DNA of 64,000 nucleotides from Escherichia phage AV125: sequence record OR352955.1; one strand, given 5' to 3'. Position 1 is the first letter of the stretch. Every line of letters begins with the position of its first letter. The translations under genes were made by a program, and so were the position numbers. Of this stretch, positions 5,544 through 62,500 are shown piece by piece. The notes under the pieces were generated by a model. That model saw only the letters and a list, made by a program, of their open reading frames with translations. It was not told the origin of the DNA and searched no databases.

Positions 5544-5994
5544 AGAAGGTCATGTCTACCGTTTCCAGGATGAGGATTATATGCGACTATATTCTACCTT
5601 TGATAACAGTATTGCGGCTATCATTGGAGAGAATTTTTTCGAGGTGTTGAGCACTGATGCAAATGGTAATATCTTGTCAATGGTTGTAATAGGTATGAGA
5701 GATGGTATTATCACTGCTGGTGATGGGGATCGTTACATAATCAATTCTGCTCATATAGATTATTTTGTTGACGGTGGTGTTCGTGGTGGTCGTGGAAAAC
5801 CCCAAGAAGAACCTGTTGATACAACAAAAGAAGAGTGGTATGTTGTAATGACTGATGACACCTGTATTTCTGGATTTGAAAGTTATGAAGAAGCTTTGAA
5901 AGAAGCAGCAGAGCATAAAATGGCTAATCCTACAGAAGAGGTTGAAGTTTATAAACGTATGGTTGTTGCTACCATCGGTGTATCTTTTGTTTAA
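5536..5994 (+). CDS. family B protein (tandem paralog 1 of 3)
   Basis: N-terminus MFKEGHVYRFQDED shared with next two genes (MFKVGFVYNFKSED, MFKANAVYCFKSKA); internal I(I/T)(E/A)AG motif. Confidence 0.6.
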   Translation: MFKEGHVYRFQDEDYMRLYSTFDNSIAAIIGENFFEVLSTDANGNILSMVVIGMRDGIITAGDGDRYIINSAHIDYFVDGGVRGGRGKPQEEPVDTTKEEWYVVMTDDTCISGFESYEEALKEAAEHKMANPTEEVEVYKRMVVATIGVSFV

Positions 5995-6006
5995 AAGGGG
6001 AATGTT

Positions 6007-6792
6007 ATGTTTAAAGTAGGTTTTGTTTATAATTTCAAATCGGAAGATACCAAAAAGAATTTTGGTAAAGCTAGTATTGGTAACGCTTTCTTTGTAGGTT
6101 GCATTCAAGATAGCAAGTTTAAAGTTTTGGATGTTGATTTTCTTGGTTCTGTATCTAAGGTGAAGGTATTAGACACAAATAAAATCATCGAAGCTGGTTC
6201 TGGGCTTTTCCCTGAAGGTTATAAGCTTGTAAGTTGTATGGATTATACTCGTTTTGAAGAACATACTCCTGAAGATTATGAAGATTCTCCTACAGGAGGC
6301 TGTGTCTTTGTAGAAGGTGGTGTCTATAAGTTTGCAAGTGAACAAGATCGTAAGCTTTTCGCCAATTATATTGACGGCGGACAAACGACAAACAATGTAA
6401 ACCGAAAAATTTCCGATCTTATTGGCGATGATCCTTTCGTGATCACAAAGATGGTTGGACAAGATGTAACAGCAATCCGTAGGCTTGTATGTAATACAAA
6501 TCATGTAGCAGGTGAAGGCTGGTTCAAGGAAGCTTGTGCGCTGCTAATCAAAAGCGATAACCCTTATTTTAAAAATATTAAAGATGTTGTTGAGCCTAAA
6601 CAAGAGGAATCCGCAGCGAATTTTAAACACTATGCTATTGTTAAAGGTATGAATGTCCAACTGGTGTCACATTCTTACGAAGAGATCGCCACAGAAGCAA
6701 AAAAGATGAAAGAAGAATACCCAATTTCTACTGTTGAGATCTATGAGCGTATTGGTGTTGTTAGTATTGAGCCTACTGCGGTAATAAAATAA
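6007..6792 (+). CDS. family B protein (tandem paralog 2 of 3, longer)
   Basis: 261 aa; N-terminal domain paralogous to 5536 and 6802 genes. Confidence 0.6.
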   Translation: MFKVGFVYNFKSEDTKKNFGKASIGNAFFVGCIQDSKFKVLDVDFLGSVSKVKVLDTNKIIEAGSGLFPEGYKLVSCMDYTRFEEHTPEDYEDSPTGGCVFVEGGVYKFASEQDRKLFANYIDGGQTTNNVNRKISDLIGDDPFVITKMVGQDVTAIRRLVCNTNHVAGEGWFKEACALLIKSDNPYFKNIKDVVEPKQEESAANFKHYAIVKGMNVQLVSHSYEEIATEAKKMKEEYPISTVEIYERIGVVSIEPTAVIK

Positions 6793-58479: not shown

Positions 58480-58910
58480 ATGATAAATCACCTTACCTAG
58501 TAAGTGAACTTGCTCTACGAGCCTCTTATGAAGCTTATGTTATAGGCTATACTATTGCTACCTGTTTAAGCAAGGTTTTTGCACACAGAAAATAATTTTT
58601 AATAAAACTCTTGACTTTTCTGTTCGAAGTATGCTACCCTAGAAATCTATTAACGAGCGCAGCGAGTTAAGGTTTTAGGTTGTTGATGTAGTACTCTGTA
58701 CTCAAGTACTGTACTCCGTACTAGATTAATAATTATTAAATATTAATAATAAATAATTATTAGATCTAACAAACAGGTACAGTGTATCAGAACTGGTACG
58801 TACAGATCAACTTCTATCAATTAAAAATAAAATAATAAATTATTATAAATAATACTTGATCTATAGATCAGTATGAAGTACAGTACGGAACATCTTAACA
58901 AGAATGGAGG
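58480..58910. other. AT-rich intergenic control region with GTACT repeats and palindromes
   Basis: Five GTACT copies in about 40 bp near 58690-58730, AT-only palindromic tract, perfect palindrome TGATCTATAGATCA near 58858-58871, TATAAATA (T4 late-promoter-like) near 58843. Confidence 0.5.
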
Positions 58911-58916
58911 TGTGCA

Positions 58917-59102
58917 ATGATTAGCGAGAATCCGTGCAAATGGCATCATGTACCTATTAAAGATTGTATGTCTTGTAATCCACGTTCTATTTATAACATT
59001 GCATCTTATGACGATGACAATGTGTTAGACGATGATGAAGGCTGGGAGGATTTAGATTGGACTGGTTATGAAACCAAAAAGGATAAAATTATTCCTAGTT
59101 GA
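58917..59102 (+). CDS. hypothetical protein
   Basis: 61 aa, RBS GGAGGTG. Confidence 0.5.
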   Translation: MISENPCKWHHVPIKDCMSCNPRSIYNIASYDDDNVLDDDEGWEDLDWTGYETKKDKIIPS

Positions 59103-59139
59103 CTTAAGATATCCTTCGTGCTAAACTAGAAGTGAGGAG

Positions 59140-59391
59140 ATGCCGATCACTCCCCATTTGGGGTTCGAAGGATATATGCAAAATAGTTTTTATTTTAGGT
59201 GCCGTGCTTGTAATAGGCATTTGACAAACCACTCCAGACGTGATAAAAATGGAGTCATCAAGGAATCAGACCTCTGTTCTATTTGCACAGGTTTGGCTTT
59301 TGATGATAGTCCCGAAAGGGTTTATCAGCATCAATGTATAACAGACGTTCTCGTGTCAAACTTGGTAGAGGACGAACAACTAACAGATTAG
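59140..59391 (+). CDS. Cys-rich hypothetical protein
   Basis: 83 aa, RBS GAGGAG; CRACNRH ... CSICTG. Confidence 0.45.
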   Translation: MPITPHLGFEGYMQNSFYFRCRACNRHLTNHSRRDKNGVIKESDLCSICTGLAFDDSPERVYQHQCITDVLVSNLVEDEQLTD

Positions 59392-59399
59392 GAGGAACA

Positions 59400-59648
59400 A
59401 TGTCTCTATTAGAAAAACACGTGTTTGAAGATGGTAACGGCAATGCAGTTTTTCTTTTCCATCCAGAAAAATACACATCTGAAAACAATGGTACAACTTC
59501 TATTGTAATCACTAAAGATGTTAAAGTTATTGATTTCTTGGCTCTGATGCGAGAGATGGATCTTGAAATTAACACTTTTAACGCAGAAGCTTTGGTTGTT
59601 GCTCTTCTGGAAAAGAAAGATAGTGAAGAAGTAGCAGAATATGCTTAA
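59400..59648 (+). CDS. hypothetical protein
   Basis: Start at ATG 59400 (RBS TAGGAGGAA); 82 aa. Confidence 0.5.
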   Translation: MSLLEKHVFEDGNGNAVFLFHPEKYTSENNGTTSIVITKDVKVIDFLALMREMDLEINTFNAEALVVALLEKKDSEEVAEYA

Positions 59649-59655
59649 ATAACTA

Positions 59656-59684
59656 TTGACAAACGTATCCTTCATATGTTAGGA
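59656..59684 (+). promoter_or_regulatory. sigma70-like promoter overlapping a 9-bp inverted repeat
   Basis: TTGACA 59656-59661; AACGTATCC ... GGATACGTT inverted repeat; TAGGAT -10-like. Confidence 0.45.
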
Positions 59685-59689
59685 TACGT

Positions 59690-59890
59690 TCATCAAGTGT
59701 GGTAACAGGGTCGTTGACTTTTGTTAAGAGGGGCTTGCACTGCGGTAGTGTTAGAGACTACTTCTTCAGAGGTTAGCTACCAAAGAGGAAAAGGAATAGT
59801 CTCGGCTCAAGAACTTTTACGCTGAAAGTTGGGCTTGGTCTTAGAGAATGTAGCGGTTCTCTACAATCGTCAGCGTCTCTGTTACCACAT
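59690..59890 (+). ncRNA. candidate structured small RNA at head of tRNA cluster
   Basis: GTGGTAACAG near 5' end pairs with CTGTTACCAC near 59881-59890, enclosing about 180 nt with internal helices; no ORF. Confidence 0.35.
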
Positions 59891-59894
59891 TTAT

Positions 59895-59966
59895 GGCCCT
59901 GTAGCTCAATGGGAGAGCTGTCGGCTCATAACCGATAGGTAGCTGGATCGAAACCAGCCAGGGCCA
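59895..59966 (+). tRNA. tRNA-Met (anticodon CAT; could also be Ile2 or initiator)
   Basis: Cloverleaf folded by hand: acceptor GGCCCTG/CAGGGCC, anticodon loop CTCATAA, T-loop ATCGAAA; CCA encoded. Confidence 0.8.
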
Positions 59967-59971
59967 CCAAA

Positions 59972-60043
59972 GTCTTTATGGTGTAATGGATAGCACAGGA
60001 GTCTTCTAAACTCTTAGTCAAGGTTCGATTCCTTGTAAAGACA
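59972..60043 (+). tRNA. tRNA-Arg (anticodon TCT)
   Basis: Acceptor GTCTTTA/TAAAGAC, anticodon loop CTTCTAA, T-arm CAAGG-TTCGATT-CCTTG; CCA encoded. Confidence 0.8.
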
Positions 60044-60242
60044 CCAGAACATTTTAACATGAATTAGCTCAAGTGATTTGAACCCACTACTGATCATGGT
60101 GGCAGAGAATGAGGCAAGTATGTCAGACATTATAAACAAAGGCCACGGTTATATTAGAAGACATAAATGCTCGAAGAGCACCGTTCGTGGAGAACGGGGG
60201 TTGGTGGAGTCACCATTCATGGTAAAATGTTTTAAAAAACTA

Positions 60243-60271
60243 TTGACAACAAACATTATTTTATGTTAGAT
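60243..60271 (+). promoter_or_regulatory. sigma70-like promoter within tRNA cluster
   Basis: TTGACA 60243-60248, 17-bp spacer, TTAGAT; 10 nt before tRNA-Ser. Confidence 0.55.
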
Positions 60272-60280
60272 TATAAGTAT

Positions 60281-60368
60281 GGAAGGGCAAATCGATGTGG
60301 CGACGAAAACGGTCTTGAAAACCGCCGAGCTTGAAAGAGCCTTGGGAGTTCGACTCTCCCTCCTTCCG
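60281..60368 (+). tRNA. tRNA-Ser (anticodon TGA), class II
   Basis: Acceptor GGAAGGG/TCCTTCC, anticodon loop CTTGAAA, long variable arm, T-arm GGGAG-TTCGACT-CTCCC; CCA encoded. Confidence 0.8.
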
Positions 60369-60376
60369 CCAGATTA

Positions 60377-60459
60377 GGTAGATTGGTGAAATGGTAGCCA
60401 CGACAGTTTGCTAAACTGTAGTCGGAAACGGCGTGTAGGTTCGAGTCCTACATCTACCG
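60377..60459 (+). tRNA. tRNA-Ser (anticodon GCT), class II
   Basis: Acceptor GGTAGAT/ATCTACC, anticodon stem ACAGT/ACTGT, loop TTGCTAA, variable arm with GAAA loop; CCA encoded. Confidence 0.8.
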
Positions 60460-60461
60460 CC

Positions 60462-60592
60462 AAGTTCTTTTTAATGTAGCTTACTTTAGCAGAGTAAATC
60501 TTCGGCAAGTGGCGGTAACCACTTTACCGATACCTCATAGTTAGTGGTGTGAACACTGGCTATTTTAAAAAGAATTTAAATATTAGTATTTA
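60462..60592 (+). ncRNA. candidate small RNA between tRNAs
   Basis: 131-nt spacer with no tRNA fold and no ORF; internal GTGG...CCAC complementarity; T4 carries small stable RNAs at the equivalent place. Confidence 0.3.
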
Positions 60593-60677
60593 GGTGAGTT
60601 AATTCCGTAGGGGTAGCGGGGCAGACTGTAAATCTGTTATCATTGCGATTCGGGTGGTTCGACTCCATCACTCACCA
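60593..60677 (+). tRNA. tRNA-Tyr (anticodon GTA), class II
   Basis: Closely parallels E. coli tRNA-Tyr: GCAGACTGTAAATCTG anticodon arm, long variable arm, acceptor GGTGAGT/ACTCACC; CCA encoded. Confidence 0.8.
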
Positions 60678-60686
60678 CCAAATTAA

Positions 60687-60769
60687 GATGAGTTGGCTGA
60701 ATGGTTTAAGCGGCGGACTGTTAATCCGTGTTCGAAAGAACAATATAGGTTCGAATCCTATACTCATCG
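60687..60769 (+). tRNA. class II-type tRNA with GTT (Asn) anticodon by loop geometry
   Basis: Perfect 7-bp acceptor GATGAGT/ACTCATC, T-arm ATAGG-TTCGAAT-CCTAT, 3-bp D-stem, 15-nt variable arm (GTTC-GAAA-GAAC), anticodon loop CTGTTAA closed by GCGGA/TCCGT. Confidence 0.5.
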
Positions 60770-60779
60770 CCAGAATTAT

Positions 60780-60856
60780 GGACTTGTAGAGTTAAGGTAA
60801 ACCCCCAGTCGCCAATAGGCTTCTGGAATTGCAGGTATCGAATCCTGCCGAGTCCC
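60780..60856 (+). pseudogene. tRNA-like element with aberrant anticodon arm
   Basis: 7-bp acceptor GGACTTG/CGAGTCC and T-arm GCAGG...TCGAAT...CCTGC present, but no canonical 5-bp/7-nt anticodon stem-loop and no CCA. Confidence 0.3.
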
Positions 60857-60862
60857 AGCATT

Positions 60863-60934
60863 GCTCCTATAGTATAATGGCTATTACAACGGTTTTGTAA
60901 TCCGTGGATCTCTGTTCGATTCAGTGTGGGAGCA
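60863..60934 (+). tRNA. tRNA-Thr (anticodon TGT)
   Basis: Acceptor GCTCCTA/TGGGAGC, anticodon loop TTTGTAA with a 4-bp stem, T-loop TTCGATT; CCA encoded. Confidence 0.65.
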
Positions 60935-60937
60935 CCA

Positions 60938-61200
60938 ACACAACATTAAGAGCACTGTGATTGATCGTCGTATCCTGTGCACAAGGTCTGCTCGAAAGAC
61001 AGTGTTCTTAGTATTGTGTTGATCACAAAAAGAGTCACCCGAAACTTGACCGGAGTAGGGTTGGATGGGGCAAAATGAGAAGCGGCTCTCCCATCGACAG
61101 CAACGAAGAATAATATTTGACTTTGGTTTTGTATTATTTTAAGTTAGCTTACCGAACGTAGGGCTAGTCACCCAACGGGATACTCGTCACTGTCCCAATC
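60938..61200 (+). ncRNA. candidate structured RNA or spacer within tRNA cluster
   Basis: About 260 nt without ORF or tRNA fold; CACTGTG ... ACAGTG and other inverted repeats. Confidence 0.25.
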
Positions 61201-61210
61201 AATAAAAGTC

Positions 61211-61240
61211 TTGACAACAAATAGTAAAATGTAGTATAGT
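61211..61240 (+). promoter_or_regulatory. sigma70-like promoter within tRNA cluster
   Basis: TTGACA 61211-61216, 18-bp spacer, TATAGT; 11 nt before tRNA-Gly. Confidence 0.55.
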
Positions 61241-61251
61241 AAATATATATG

Positions 61252-61322
61252 GCGTTCTTGGTGTAGCGGTAGCATTCCGTCCTTCCAAGTCGGCGGCACG
61301 AGTTCGATCCTCGTAGAACGCT
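61252..61322 (+). tRNA. tRNA-Gly (anticodon TCC)
   Basis: Acceptor GCGTTCT/AGAACGC, anticodon loop CTTCCAA, T-arm ACGAG-TTCGATC-CTCGT; CCA encoded; D-arm not cleanly resolved by hand. Confidence 0.65.
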
Positions 61323-61423
61323 CCAAATTATTTAATAAAGGGTTGCCAGAAAACTTTCTCTTTTACTCATGGTTTTCTCCTTCTCTCACACTTCTTCTGG
61401 TTGCCCTTCATTAAATGATTTAT

Positions 61424-61496
61424 TGGTTTGTAGTGTAGTCCGGTAGCACACGACACTTTGACTGTCGTAGGTTTGGTTCAAATCCAGACAGACCAG
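61424..61496 (+). tRNA. tRNA-Gln (anticodon TTG)
   Basis: U1-A72 acceptor TGGTTTG/CAGACCA, anticodon stem CGACA/TGTCG, loop CTTTGAC, T-loop TTCAAAT; CCA encoded. Confidence 0.8.
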
Positions 61497-61592
61497 CCAT
61501 ATAACAAAGGTGAGTCACTACCTTAAGTGTGAAGTTAAAAACGAGGAGCCGCCGAACACTTTCTTTTGCGGTGTACCTTTAGAATGTTATCA

Positions 61593-61666
61593 CGGGACGT
61601 AGCACAGCTTGGTAGTGCGCTCGCTTTGGGAGCGAGAGGTCGAGTGTTCGAATCACTCCGTCCCGA
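61593..61666 (+). tRNA. tRNA-Pro (anticodon TGG)
   Basis: C1-G72 acceptor CGGGACG/CGTCCCG as in E. coli tRNA-Pro, D-stem GCAC/GTGC, anticodon stem CTCGC/GCGAG, loop TTTGGGA; CCA encoded. Confidence 0.85.
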
Positions 61667-61675
61667 CCAATTAAA

Positions 61676-61746
61676 TGTTTCGTAGTTCAATGGTAGAACC
61701 CACGACTGATAATCGTGAGACACAAGTTCGATTCTTGTCGAAACAA
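61676..61746 (+). tRNA. tRNA-Ile (anticodon GAT)
   Basis: Acceptor TGTTTCG/CGAAACA, D-stem GTTC/GAAC, anticodon stem CACGA/TCGTG, loop CTGATAA; CCA encoded. Confidence 0.8.
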
Positions 61747-61751
61747 CCAGT

Positions 61752-61821
61752 TTCCCGTTAGACTTACAGGATAAGAGTTCCACAGCTTATTGTGATGCTG
61801 GTTCGAATCCAGCACGGGATA
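61752..61821 (+). pseudogene. tRNA-like element with non-canonical anticodon region
   Basis: Acceptor TTCCCGT/ACGGGAT (6 of 7 pairs) and perfect T-arm GCTGG-TTCGAAT-CCAGC, but the central region only forms ATAAG/CTTAT with a 10-nt loop; no CCA. Confidence 0.3.
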
Positions 61822-61827
61822 CATAAT

Positions 61828-61903
61828 AGCGGGATAGAGGAGTCTGGTCGTCCTCGCCAGTTTCATATGCTGGAGATCATCGGTTCAAATCCGATTCCCG
61901 CCT
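61828..61903 (+). tRNA. tRNA with CAT anticodon (Met or Ile2), A1-C72 acceptor mismatch
   Basis: Anticodon stem CCAGT/GCTGG, loop TTCATAT, T-arm ATCGG-TTCAAAT-CCGAT, acceptor AGCGGGA/TCCCGCC; CCA encoded. Confidence 0.65.
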
Positions 61904-62021
61904 CCAAATATCGCTTGCCAGCGGTATCTTTGAAGACCTTGCCTGGTTCCTTCTAAGATGGAGGGGTGCGACTCCTTAACGCACAATTATAATAAAGCAT
62001 TTCAACTTAACAGTATTTACT

Positions 62022-62044
62022 AGCCTCCTTATTGGAGGCTTTTT
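62022..62044 (+). terminator. rho-independent terminator ending tRNA cluster
   Basis: AGCCTCC-ttatt-GGAGGCT followed by TTTT. Confidence 0.75.
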
Positions 62045-62063
62045 GCTATCTATTGAATAAAAC

Positions 62064-62092
62064 TTGACTTATTATTTTTTATATGTTAAGAT
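62064..62092 (+). promoter_or_regulatory. sigma70-like promoter
   Basis: TTGACT 62064-62069, about 17-bp spacer, TAAGAT; upstream of 62114 gene. Confidence 0.5.
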
Positions 62093-62113
62093 AAAGTTTA
62101 GGAGGATTTTATT

Positions 62114-62410
62114 ATGCCTAAACTAAAACGTGGTCGTGGAAGACCAACAGCCGAAATGCAACAGATCTACGCAATGGATGCGGCGCAAGCAAGTGTAAAA
62201 GAATTATTTGCAGAGCATTATTTAGAAGCTATGCGATATATTGTTGAACTTGTTAATGATAAGGATGCAGCAAAACCTCTCCGCTTCCAAGCAGCTAAAG
62301 CTATTAAAGAGCAAGTAGAAGAATGGTTAGAAGAACATTATGAAGCTATGGAAGAAGAAACTCCTGCCGTGCAGAATACAGATGACGTTCCTAAAAAGAT
62401 CGTAATCTAA
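62114..62410 (+). CDS. small DNA-binding-like protein with AT-hook-like N-terminus
   Basis: MPKLKRGRGRPT (RGRP AT-hook-like), acidic helical remainder; RBS TAGGAGG. Confidence 0.55.
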   Translation: MPKLKRGRGRPTAEMQQIYAMDAAQASVKELFAEHYLEAMRYIVELVNDKDAAKPLRFQAAKAIKEQVEEWLEEHYEAMEEETPAVQNTDDVPKKIVI

Positions 62411-62460
62411 TCCCTCTCCTCTCTTGGGGCTTTGCCCCCTCCTCCTTGTTATTTTTAACA

Positions 62461-62492
62461 CCCCTCTCCGAAAGGTTAGGGGCTTTTTTATT
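62461..62492 (+). terminator. rho-independent terminator
   Basis: CCCCT...AGGGG stem followed by CTTTTTTATTTTT. Confidence 0.6.
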
Positions 62493-62500
62493 TTTAATGC

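What the first reader, a model, noticed from the sequence alone, without database searches (positions are those of the whole stretch)
59690..61200. Non-tRNA spacers inside the tRNA cluster that may encode small structured RNAs
Three spacers (59690-59890, 60462-60592, 60938-61200) have no ORF and do not fold as tRNAs, yet contain long-range complementarity, for example GTGGTAACAG pairing with CTGTTACCAC 180 nt away. T4 encodes small stable RNAs of unknown function within its tRNA region (established), so equivalents are plausible here.
Basis: partly seen in the sequence, partly recalled or inferred. Interest (0 to 1): 0.4.

Follow-up and report, generated by a model that had tools for sequence, protein, structure and literature searches.

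The report
Structured spacer RNAs in phage tRNA operon
The gaps between the tRNA genes of this phAPEC8-like E. coli phage hold conserved, tightly folded non-coding RNA modules of the same kind as the unexplained "small stable RNAs" of phages T4 and T5, and one of them travels between unrelated phages together with a tRNA-Tyr gene.

Summary
The window is a Phapecoctavirus (phAPEC8-like) genome. Its tRNA cluster (59656-62050, + strand) has three sigma-70-like promoters and one terminator. The three spacers carry no tRNA, intron, Rfam family or conserved ORF, and each is closed by a long helix.

- **S1 (59691-59894):** a roughly 200-nt multi-branched RNA right after the first promoter. Across 8 variants, 98% of pair cells hold and 12 pairs show compensatory changes. 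It occurs only in Phapecoctavirus.
- **S2 (60463-60579):** a four-helix RNA found in Phapecoctavirus, Justusliebigvirus, Vequintavirinae and some T5-like phages. Seven pairs covary across 19 sequences. It is usually joined to tRNA-Tyr. The S2+tRNA-Tyr block is 97.7% identical in a Vequintavirus whose flanks are unrelated.
- **S3:** a 22-bp hairpin (60936-21021 in short: 60936-61021) that is 100% conserved in the genus, with relatives in siphophages and prophages, followed by a less well-defined multi-hairpin part (61025-61197).

None is homologous to T4 RNAC/RNAD or the annotated T5 stable RNAs, but position and architecture match them. My best reading is RNA modules co-transcribed with the tRNAs, excised by tRNA-processing enzymes and stabilised by their terminal helices. 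Expression and function are untested. These are new members of a known but unexplained kind, of moderate interest.

The parts
59656..59685 (+). Promoter-like site P1 (TTGACA, 18 nt, TAGGAT, with TG extension). The inferred transcription start is near 59691. It sits inside a palindrome, 59656-59696.
   Evidence: 10 of 12 matches, TG present. repeat I5. The same motif is conserved in phiWec179 and PsgM04F.
59691..59894 (+). S1, a roughly 200-nt multi-branched leader RNA. It has a closing helix of 22 pairs (about 59695-59717 with 59870-59892) and four internal hairpins. It ends 2 nt before tRNA-Met.
   Evidence: covariation. (+ strand -76.8 kcal/mol against - strand -53.7, with 15 G-U pairs). (covariance model 241 bits on + against 31 on -). 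(70 phage records, 61 at >=99% identity).
59895..59969 (+). tRNA-Met(CAU). Its 5' end defines the inferred RNase P cut that would release S1.
60047..60236 (+). It has a 17-bp closing helix. It also holds a small ORF with a Shine-Dalgarno sequence (ATG at 60120).
   Evidence: z = -3.1. repeat I3. (C-G to U-A change in the closing helix against phiWec179). ORF listed.
60243..60272 (+). Promoter-like site P2.
60463..60579 (+). S2, a roughly 116-nt RNA with four helices. P1 is the closing helix of up to 17 bp. P2 is UUACU/AGUAA. P3 is a two-part helix. P4 is the fourth. S2 starts directly after the CCA of tRNA-Ser(GCU) and is followed by a 13-nt A/U-rich linker and tRNA-Tyr.
   Evidence: (covariation, three pair types at one P1 position). 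(covariance model 146 bits on + against 41 on -). (cassette with tRNA-Tyr).
60593..60677 (+). tRNA-Tyr, missed by ARAGORN. It is co-inherited with S2.
   Evidence: 39 bits. (annotated in OR062524)..
60936..61021 (+). S3a, a long hairpin with a 22-bp stem containing one C.A mismatch and a conserved apical part (GAUUGAUCGUCGU...GUCUGCUCGAA). It overlaps the CCA end of tRNA-Thr.
   Evidence: repeat I2. (z = -5.7). (100% identical in phiWec179 and PsgM04F).. (family of five).
61025..61197 (+). S3b-d, a multi-hairpin region. Its conserved blocks are GAGUCACCCGAAACUUGACCGGAGUAGGGUUGG, a covarying hairpin GGAUGGGG/CUCCCAUC, a sequence-variable hairpin, and ACCGAACGUAGGGCUAGUCACCCAACGGGAUACUCGUCACUGUCCCA. 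The overall fold is not settled.
   Evidence: alignment. (blocks also present after tRNA-Thr in Citrobacter phage Tr1). (z = -0.8, weak).
61211..61240 (+). Promoter-like site P3, which bounds spacer 3.
   Evidence: 11 of 12 matches.
62022..62040 (+). Intrinsic terminator-like hairpin plus T-run that ends the tRNA/spacer-RNA operon.
   Evidence: A terminator is annotated at the equivalent place in ASO2A.

Best explanation
The three spacers are RNA modules, not junk spacers.

**How they are made (inferred).** They are transcribed on the + strand from the strong sigma-70-type promoters that drive the tRNAs. S1 is the 5' leader of the first transcript. S2 lies between tRNA-Ser and tRNA-Tyr. S3a and S3b-d follow tRNA-Thr. 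They would be released by the host tRNA-processing machinery:
- RNase P cuts at the 5' end of the downstream tRNA.
- Endo- and exonucleolytic trimming acts at the CCA of the upstream tRNA.
- RNase III possibly cuts within the 17-23-bp closing helices.

The terminal helix that pairs the 5' and 3' ends of each module would then protect it from exonucleases. The modules would accumulate as small stable RNAs of about 85-205 nt, as T4 RNAC/RNAD and T5 RNA I, III, IV and 2H do.

**What they do (inferred, less certain).** S2 behaves as a leader co-inherited with phage tRNA-Tyr. It most likely acts in cis, keeping the pre-tRNA correctly folded, processed or highly expressed. S1 and S3a are optional cargo whose conserved sequence goes beyond what structure requires. 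They more likely bind a protein or RNA partner in trans.

**Shown:** conserved + strand secondary structure, distribution across phages, and promoter and terminator consensus matches.

**Inferred:** transcription, processing sites, stability and any function.
For: **Structure**
- S1: 68 pairs, 98.2% of cells paired, 12 pairs with changes on both sides against 0-2 when the 3' partner is slid, and 0 of 500 shuffles as good.
- S2: 37 pairs, 97.4% paired, 7 covarying pairs against 0-1 in controls, using 19 sequences from Stephanstirmvirinae, Vequintavirinae and Demerecviridae.
- S3a: all five family members fold into stems of about 21 bp. Five pairs changed on both sides.

**Strand**
- S1 has 15 G-U pairs and folds 23 kcal/mol better on the + strand.
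- Covariance models score 241 against 31 bits for S1 and 146 against 41 bits for S2, + against -.

**Transcription units**
- Three promoter-like sites on the + strand and one terminator.
- S1 starts about 4 nt after the inferred start site and ends 2 nt before tRNA-Met.

**Selection, measured against phiWec179**
- Flanking CDS are 61-80% identical and tRNAs 96.7%.
- S3a is 100%. S1 is 80.8% and S2 is 77.9%, with the substitutions being compensatory.

**Not coding**
- S1 ORFs are frameshifted or stopped in relatives.

**Modularity**
- S2+tRNA-Tyr is a 221-nt block 97.7% identical in Vequintavirus JES2013, with unrelated flanks.
- S1 is absent from Justusliebigvirus PHB05 and Citrobacter phage Tr1, so it is not needed to make tRNA-Met.

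**Precedent**
- The T5 RefSeq record annotates eight such RNAs between its tRNA genes, six as 'stable RNA with unknown functions' and one directly after a promoter. RNA III, 2H and IV have paired ends and RNA I an acceptor-like end (my reading of the sequences printed).
- T4 RNAC and RNAD are confirmed transcripts of unknown role (PMC3014915, PMC9697503).
Against: - There are no expression data for any Phapecoctavirus. No paper in the library reports transcriptomics of the tRNA region.
- The S1 covariation rests on only 3-4 independent lineages. The shuffle control is known to be optimistic for related sequences.
- S3b-d has no thermodynamic signal (z = -0.8) and no settled fold.
- The closing helix is a generic feature. 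It is also seen in unrelated leaders before tRNA-Tyr in T5 and SP15. That fits a sequence-independent cis role as well as, or better than, a trans function.
- No partner, target or phenotype is known for the T4 and T5 analogues after 50 years.
Confidence: 0.6

Rival explanations
1. The spacers are purely cis-acting processing or insulating elements. Their helices only keep neighbouring tRNAs from misfolding, give RNase III, RNase E or RNase P defined cut sites, and keep the long untranslated transcript too structured for Rho to load. The excised pieces are degraded and have no function of their own.
For: - Every spacer of 90 nt or more in the cluster is stem-closed, whatever its sequence family.
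- In T5-like phages the slot before tRNA-Tyr holds unrelated leaders, all stem-closed: S2 in HildyBeyeler and Spc35, and other sequences in T5 and SP15.
- S2 always lies directly upstream of a tRNA.
Against: - Sister phages make the same tRNAs with spacers of under 10 nt and without S1 or S3, so the elements are not needed for processing.
- The S1 closing helix and loops are almost invariant at 20% overall divergence. S3a is 100% conserved. That is more than a generic helix needs.
- S3a relatives sit in non-tRNA contexts.
- The T4 and T5 counterparts do accumulate as stable RNAs.
Confidence: 0.25
2. The inverted repeats act at the DNA level. They would be protein-binding palindromes, recombination or homing hot spots, or the terminal inverted repeats of miniature mobile elements that have colonised the tRNA cluster.
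For: - S2 and S3a occur in unrelated phages.
- S3a-like hairpins occur twice in PJ16 and in PsgM04F, with a conserved base and a variable interior.
- Relatives carry HNH endonuclease or HTH genes inserted at spacer positions.
- The P1 promoter lies in a palindrome (I5).
Against: - The strand asymmetry is strong. There are many G-U pairs and no A-C pairs on the + strand. Covariance-model scores are 3.5- to 8-fold higher on the + strand.
- Covariation also occurs in internal hairpins, not only in the terminal repeats.
- No target-site duplications or transposase genes were seen.
Confidence: 0.06
3. The spacers are decayed tRNA genes, or tRNA genes interrupted by introns (group I or other).
For: - The cluster does contain tRNA-like relics with a T-arm at 60778-60858, 61750-61825 and 61907-61985.
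- T4 RNAC and T5 RNA1, RNA2 and RNA3 are tRNA-like.
- S2 has a four-way-junction topology.
Against: - There is no tRNA, group I or group II intron hit in the three spacers, even at E<=10.
- ARAGORN finds nothing there.
- None of them contains a T-loop (GTTCRA) motif (direct reading).
- No flanking exon halves are present.
Confidence: 0.04
4. The spacers encode micro-proteins.
For: - Mechanical ORFs of 25-37 aa exist.
- Some annotators called CDSs there: PsgM04F, ETEC-TG, WPEC and EP57.
Against: - S1 ORFs lack a Shine-Dalgarno sequence and are frameshifted in nepoznato and ESCO5, and stopped in the phiWec lineage.
- Substitutions are pairwise compensatory rather than at third codon positions.
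Confidence: 0.02

Closest known systems
Phage T5 stable RNAs of the tRNA region (RNA I, III, IV, 2H, X, and tRNA-like RNA1, RNA2 and RNA3, as annotated in NC_005859)
   Same: - They lie between tRNA genes of a lytic coliphage, on the same strand as the tRNAs.
- They are 100-170 nt long. In RNA III, 2H and IV the 5' and 3' ends are paired in a terminal helix, and RNA I has an acceptor-like end.
- RNA2H sits directly after a promoter and before a tRNA, as S1 does.
- Their function is unknown.
- One element of the window, 60778-60858, which lies outside the three spacers, is a homologue of T5 RNA3.
- S2 itself occurs in some Tequintavirus species.
   Different: S1, S2 and S3 show no sequence or covariance-model similarity to any RNA annotated in T5 itself. 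T5 and SP15 carry other leaders before tRNA-Tyr.
Phage T4 RNAC (species 1) and RNAD (species 2)
   Same: - They are small RNAs encoded at the end of the tRNA cluster, co-transcribed and processed with the tRNAs.
- Their role is unknown.
- An RNAD-like sequence, 86% identical over 36 nt, sits in a spacer of the related phage PsgM04F.
   Different: There is no similarity to the window's spacers. RNAC is tRNA-like with a T-arm, and S1-S3 are not.
Processing stems of bacterial rRNA operons and T7 early RNA (RNase III sites)
   Same: Long helices are formed by sequences flanking a functional RNA in an untranslated polycistronic transcript. The 17-23-bp closing helices of S1, S1.5, S2 and S3a are of RNase III substrate size. 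T4 species 1 RNA is cut by RNase III in vitro (my own recollection of Paddock et al. 1976, not checked here).
   Different: In the rRNA and T7 cases the helix encloses the useful RNA or simply separates mRNAs. Here it encloses the spacer itself. RNase III cleavage has not been tested.
Large phage-associated ncRNAs found next to tRNA genes (ROOL, GOLLD; Rfam)
   Same: They are structured ncRNAs of unknown function, frequent in phages and often adjacent to tRNA genes (my own knowledge).
   Different: They are 500-800 nt long. The window gives no Rfam hit to them at E<=10.

Membership tests
tRNA (Rfam RF00005 / ARAGORN) | Cloverleaf with a T-loop and an anticodon loop, scoring above 29 bits. | tested here: not met
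   No hit inside 59690-59894, 60463-60592 or 60938-61251 at the gathering threshold or at E<=10.
Group I / group II intron | Conserved catalytic core (P3-P9, or domains I-VI) and flanking exons. | tested here: not met
   No Rfam intron family matches 58500-62500 at E<=10. No split tRNA is present.
T4 RNAC / RNAD | Sequence homology to T4 rnaC or rnaD. | tested here: not met
   blastn with word size 7 finds only chance matches of 9-17 nt. An rnaD-like piece exists in the relative PsgM04F but not in the window.
T4 RNAC / RNAD | Encoded within the tRNA operon, on the same strand, flanked by tRNA processing sites. | tested here: met
T5 stable RNAs (RNA I, III, IV, 2H, X) | Sequence or structure homology to an RNA annotated in T5. 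| tested here: not met
   blastn finds none. The S1 and S2 covariance models find nothing in the T5 tRNA region, locus L023.
T5 / T4 'small stable RNA' kind | Accumulates as a discrete, metabolically stable RNA in infected cells. | not testable with these tools
   This needs Northern blots or small-RNA-seq. No such data turned up for Phapecoctavirus.
Conserved structured ncRNA (general) | Secondary structure maintained by compensatory substitutions across relatives. | tested here: met
   - S1.
- S2.
- S3a: (moderate).
- S3b-d: only individual hairpins.
tmRNA | tRNA-like domain plus a tag reading frame. | tested here: not met
   ARAGORN finds no tmRNA in the window. A tmRNA-like tag region lies next to S3a homologues only in other phages, and scores below the Rfam threshold.
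Protein-coding gene | An ORF with a ribosome-binding site that is conserved in relatives. | tested here: not met
   S1 ORFs are disrupted in relatives. This was not examined frame by frame for S2 and S3.

The most novel reading that the evidence does not exclude
One or more of these modules is a trans-acting counter-defence RNA that moves horizontally between unrelated coliphages through their tRNA clusters. Candidates are the S2-tRNA-Tyr cassette, the genus-specific S1, or the widely scattered S3a hairpin. Such an RNA could be a decoy or inhibitor for tRNA-targeting immune nucleases. Septu and retron-Eco7 PtuAB cleave tRNA-Tyr, and phage tRNA-Tyr is a known escape factor (PMC11555353, PMC13096335). 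It could also be a sponge for a host RNase or RNA chaperone. If so, the 50-year-old puzzle of the T4 and T5 'stable RNAs of unknown function' would gain a testable answer.
Probability: 0.12. Interest if true: 0.75.

Novelty: new member of a known kind. Interest (0 to 1): 0.42.

Why it matters
Roughly half of this 2.3-kb tRNA operon is conserved non-tRNA RNA that no deposited annotation I looked at labels as RNA. Of the records I opened, a few call short hypothetical CDSs there instead.

Phage tRNA clusters have recently been recognised as counter-defence loci. The structured RNAs that ride in them (T4 RNAC/RNAD, T5 RNA I/III/IV/2H) remain unexplained.

This work defines three new families with clear boundaries, structures and phylogenetic distributions. 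One of them is a cassette with tRNA-Tyr shared by four phage lineages. That gives concrete deletion and complementation targets in easily handled E. coli phages. It would also let these regions be annotated as ncRNA rather than as spurious small CDSs.

Tried and rejected
**Known families.** Rfam at the gathering threshold and at E<=10 finds nothing in the spacers. Homology to T4 rnaC/rnaD and to all eight RNAs annotated in T5 gives only chance matches.

**Covariance-model searches.**
- The S2 model was run over the window, the T4 and T5 tRNA regions, PHB05, Tr1, LTH01, the siphophage and prophage loci, three IMG/VR or metagenome loci, the Avunavirus locus and, separately, SP15. Besides known S2 homologues, it found only one partial S2-like leader, in Tr1.
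- The S1 model was run over a similar set that did not include SP15. It found no further copies.

**Searches for more distant S1 relatives.**
- An IMG/VR pattern scan found 1 contig.
- A metagenome scan with the upstream protein found only 5 loci.
- E. coli genomes hold no match to S1, so host mimicry by sequence is unlikely.

**Other dead ends.**
- An IMG/VR scan with an S2 motif returned mostly chance hits in coding DNA.
- I could not link S2 to the 'strong tRNA-Tyr promoter' fragment of phage SP15 used in PMC11555353. SP15 has no S2.
- I considered a boxA-like reading of the S3a 3' strand (UGUUCUUA against boxA UGCUCUUUA). I dropped it because the match is short and buried in a 22-bp duplex.
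- I looked for a tmRNA-like tag frame in spacer 3 and found none conserved.
- Literature searches for Phapecoctavirus transcriptomics and for T5 stable RNAs found nothing usable.
Full report
**Identity of the window**

The 2.5 kb around the finding is 100% identical to Escherichia phage vB_EcoM_3A1_SA_NWU. It is 95-100% identical to many phAPEC8-like myophages (Phapecoctavirus, Stephanstirmvirinae).

ARAGORN finds ten tRNA genes on the + strand between 59895 and 61906. Rfam adds tRNA-Tyr at 60593-60677, and a weak tRNA-Sec-like hit at 60281-60367. tRNAscan calls that second hit tRNA-Ser(UGA) in a sister genome.

A consensus scan gives three promoter-like sites on the + strand: 59656-59685, 60243-60272 and 61211-61240. 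The first two have a TG extension. A terminator-like hairpin with a T-run lies at 62022-62040. The cluster therefore looks like one untranslated operon with internal promoters. None of the annotated records I looked at labels the spacers as RNA. A few call short hypothetical CDSs there.

**Check of the observation**

The quoted complementarity is real. It belongs to a 35-nt inverted repeat, 59695-59729 with 59858-59892. Similar closing repeats exist for spacer 2 (60462-60480 with 60559-60577), spacer 3 (60936-60958 with 60999-61021), and the unlisted spacer 60048-60231.

| Element | Folding result |
|---|---|
| Spacer 1 | -76.8 kcal/mol, z = -5.3, none of 200 shuffles as stable |
| Spacer 2 | z = -3.2 |
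| Spacer 3 hairpin alone | z = -5.7 |
| Spacer 3, 3' part | z = -0.8 |

No tRNA, intron, riboswitch or sRNA family of Rfam matches the three spacers, even at E<=10.

**Spacer 1 (S1, 59691-59894)**

S1 occurs in 70 phage records, all Phapecoctavirus-like, and 61 of them are at >=99% identity. A second lineage is about 81% identical. It comprises the phiWec phages, PsgM04F, one IMG/VR contig and one metagenome contig.

On eight distinct sequences the consensus fold has 68 pairs:
- a 22-pair closing helix;
- a five-pair helix that encloses three hairpins;
- a fourth hairpin.

Across these, 98.2% of cells are paired. Twelve pairs changed on both sides, against 0-2 when the 3' partners are slid. 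No shuffle of 500 reaches the observed score. The caveat is that only three or four lineages are independent.

The closing helix and two apical loops are almost invariant despite 20% overall divergence. The fold is strand-specific:
- 15 G-U pairs on the + strand;
- -76.8 against -53.7 kcal/mol for + against -;
- 241 against 31 bits for the covariance model.

The short ORFs inside S1 are frameshifted or stopped in relatives.

S1 starts about 4 nt after the inferred transcription start and ends 2 nt before tRNA-Met. It is absent from Justusliebigvirus PHB05, where tRNA-Met begins 8 nt after the upstream gene. It is also absent from Citrobacter phage Tr1. E. coli genomes hold nothing similar.

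**Spacer 2 (S2, 60463-60579)**

blastn finds S2 in 182 phage records (loci):
- Phapecoctavirus;
- Justusliebigvirus (phi92, PHB05);
- Vequintavirinae (JES2013 at 98.5%, LTH01 at 77%, and an expanded 230-nt form in an Avunavirus);
- several T5-like Tequintavirus species at about 80-82% (HildyBeyeler, Spc35, phiLLS and others).

Nineteen distinct sequences support four helices: 37 pairs, 97.4% of cells paired, and seven pairs with changes on both sides against 0-1 in slid controls. One position of the closing helix shows three pair types, C-G, A-U and G-C. The P2 hairpin never varies.

The element begins directly after the CCA of the upstream tRNA or, in T5-like phages, about 80 nt after the upstream gene. 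T5 itself has its P14a promoter at that position. It is followed by a short A/U-rich linker and a tRNA. That tRNA is usually tRNA-Tyr. In the phi92 group it is tRNA-Lys and then tRNA-Tyr.

In JES2013 the only strong similarity to the window within 3.1 kb is a 221-nt block of S2 plus tRNA-Tyr at 97.7% identity. In HildyBeyeler and Spc35 the same block is 74-75% identical. S2 and tRNA-Tyr therefore travel and evolve together.

A partial S2-like core also serves as the leader before the first tRNA-Met of Tr1. T5 and SP15 lack S2 but have other stem-closed leaders before tRNA-Tyr.

**Spacer 3 (60936-61197)**

Spacer 3 is composite.

*S3a (60936-61021)* is a 22-bp hairpin with a conserved apical part. 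It is 100% identical in the diverged phiWec and PsgM04F lineage, where the flanking CDS are only 61-80% identical.

Related hairpins at 82-85% identity occur in several other settings:
- a Klebsiella siphophage, upstream of two tRNAs;
- the Nonanavirus PJ16, in two copies;
- other siphophages;
- 11 of 5426 E. coli genomes; in the one genome I opened it sits in a roughly 950-nt non-coding stretch between portal and terminase genes of what looks like a prophage.

PsgM04F carries an extra paralogue. All five aligned members fold into stems of about 21 bp. Five pairs changed on both sides, though the alignment is small and shifts register.

*S3b-d (61025-61197)* has highly conserved blocks. It also has a hairpin that covaries (GGAUGGGG/CUCCCAUC against GGAUGGAA/UUUCCAUC) and a hairpin whose sequence is replaced wholesale while remaining a hairpin. 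Tr1 has these blocks directly after its tRNA-Thr, without S3a. I could not settle its overall fold.

**Comparison with known systems**

The T5 RefSeq record annotates RNA I, III, IV, 2H and X as 'stable RNA with unknown functions', and RNA1, RNA2 and RNA3 as tRNA-like RNAs, all between its tRNA genes. The sequences of RNA III, 2H and IV have paired 5' and 3' ends, and RNA I ends in an acceptor-like GCCA. RNA2H follows a promoter and precedes a tRNA, as S1 does.

T4 RNAC and RNAD lie at the end of its tRNA cluster. RNAC is tRNA-like. Both are confirmed transcripts with unknown roles (PMC3014915 and PMC9697503).

None of these is homologous to S1, S2 or S3. There are two links to neighbouring elements. 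T5 RNA3 is homologous to the tRNA-like element at 60778-60858. The 5' part of T4 RNAD is 86% identical to a piece in a spacer of PsgM04F.

Relatives also carry an HNH endonuclease gene or an HTH gene at spacer positions. In PHB05 a 107-aa ORF replaces spacer 3. The spacers of these tRNA clusters therefore act as cargo slots that hold small genes, homing endonucleases or structured RNAs.

**Explanation**

The supported part is that S1, S2 and S3a are conserved + strand RNA structures embedded in a tRNA operon.

The inferred part is their processing. RNase P cleavage at the downstream tRNA and trimming at the upstream CCA would release them. The terminal helix would protect their ends, as for the T4 and T5 RNAs. 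The helices are 17-23 bp long, which is RNase III substrate size.

On function, S2 looks like a leader tied to tRNA-Tyr. Phage tRNA-Tyr is now known to let T5-like and T-even phages escape retron-Eco7 and Septu nucleases that cut host tRNA-Tyr (PMC11555353, PMC13096335). That would explain the horizontal spread of the cassette. Whether S2 contributes is unknown.

S1 and S3a are dispensable for tRNA production in sister phages, yet they are conserved in sequence. This points to a partner-binding role.

The main rival is a purely cis, sequence-independent insulating or processing role. It is favoured by the generic nature of the closing helices. DNA-level, pseudo-tRNA or intron, and coding readings are disfavoured by strand asymmetry, the Rfam and ARAGORN results, and the broken ORFs.

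**Verdict**

These are new members (three new families) of a known but functionally unexplained kind. Interest is moderate. It would rise if one of them proved to be a trans-acting or counter-defence RNA.

Noticed in passing
window 60047-60236 (ORF 60120-60263): A fourth stem-closed element lies between tRNA-Arg and promoter P2. It has a 17-bp closing helix with a compensatory change against phiWec179, and z = -3.1. It also holds a 47-aa ORF with a GAGG Shine-Dalgarno sequence. The N-terminal third of that ORF is diverged, while the rest is identical at the nucleotide level. Whether it is an RNA, a micro-protein or both is unclear.
   Followed up: partly
window 60778-60858, 61750-61825, 61907-61985: Three tRNA-like elements, each with an acceptor stem and a T-arm, are missed by ARAGORN and Rfam. 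The first directly follows tRNA-Asn and is homologous to T5 'RNA3, putative tRNA-like RNA'. All three are 93-100% conserved in relatives, including Justusliebigvirus.
   Followed up: partly
window 61326-61423: The Gly-Gln spacer is a long hairpin (z = -5.3) with a pyrimidine-rich loop (CUUUCUCUUUU...UUUUCUCCUUC) that looks anti-Shine-Dalgarno-like. It is 98.9% conserved in the phiWec lineage. It is recognisable, with a covarying stem, in PHB05 and Tr1.
   Followed up: partly
window 59656-59696: Promoter P1 lies inside a 16-bp inverted repeat (TTGACAAACGTATCCT / AGGATACGTTCATCAA). The repeat is kept by matching changes in phiWec179. It could be an operator, or an RNA hairpin of a read-through transcript.
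   Followed up: no
window 60459-60679; L021 1500-1720: S2 plus tRNA-Tyr is a 221-nt block 97.7% identical between this Phapecoctavirus and Vequintavirus JES2013. The flanks are unrelated, which points to a recent horizontal transfer of a leader-tRNA cassette.
   Followed up: yes
L024 1316-1590; L025 1317-1750; L040 1935-2911: Two siphophages (Klebsiella SCNJ1-C and Nonanavirus PJ16) and one E. coli genome carry non-coding regions of roughly 450-950 nt that contain S3a-like hairpins. In the E. coli genome the region lies between portal and terminase genes, apparently in a prophage. In the two phages, about 75 nt upstream of the hairpin, there is a tmRNA-like resume and tag region (AUAAAUGCAAACGAAGAUCGUUUCCUGAUGGCGGCGUAA, encoding ANEDRFLMAA*). 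It scores below the Rfam thresholds, and ARAGORN calls no tmRNA. This may be an undescribed phage tmRNA-like or large ncRNA.
   Followed up: partly
L004 4217-4252 (PsgM04F): A spacer of this relative holds a sequence 86% identical to the first 36 nt of T4 RNAD. It has a compensatory change in the 5' hairpin and a similar 3' end. RNAD-like RNAs are therefore not confined to T4-like phages.
   Followed up: partly
L033 4071-4589; L027 about 5800-6600; L005 5697-6020: Relatives carry different cargo at the same spacer positions. Nepoznato has an HNH endonuclease. A metagenomic Phapecoctavirus and ZCKP1 have an HTH/antitoxin-like gene. PHB05 has a 107-aa ORF. The tRNA cluster is a hot spot for accessory cargo.
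   Followed up: no
window 58680-58880: An A/T-rich non-coding stretch upstream of the cluster holds repeated GTAC-containing motifs (GTACTCTGTACTCAAGTACTGTACTCCGTACTAG ... GTACAGTACGGAAC). The equivalent region is annotated as a repeat_region in phage nepoznato. It could be an origin or a regulatory region.
   Followed up: no
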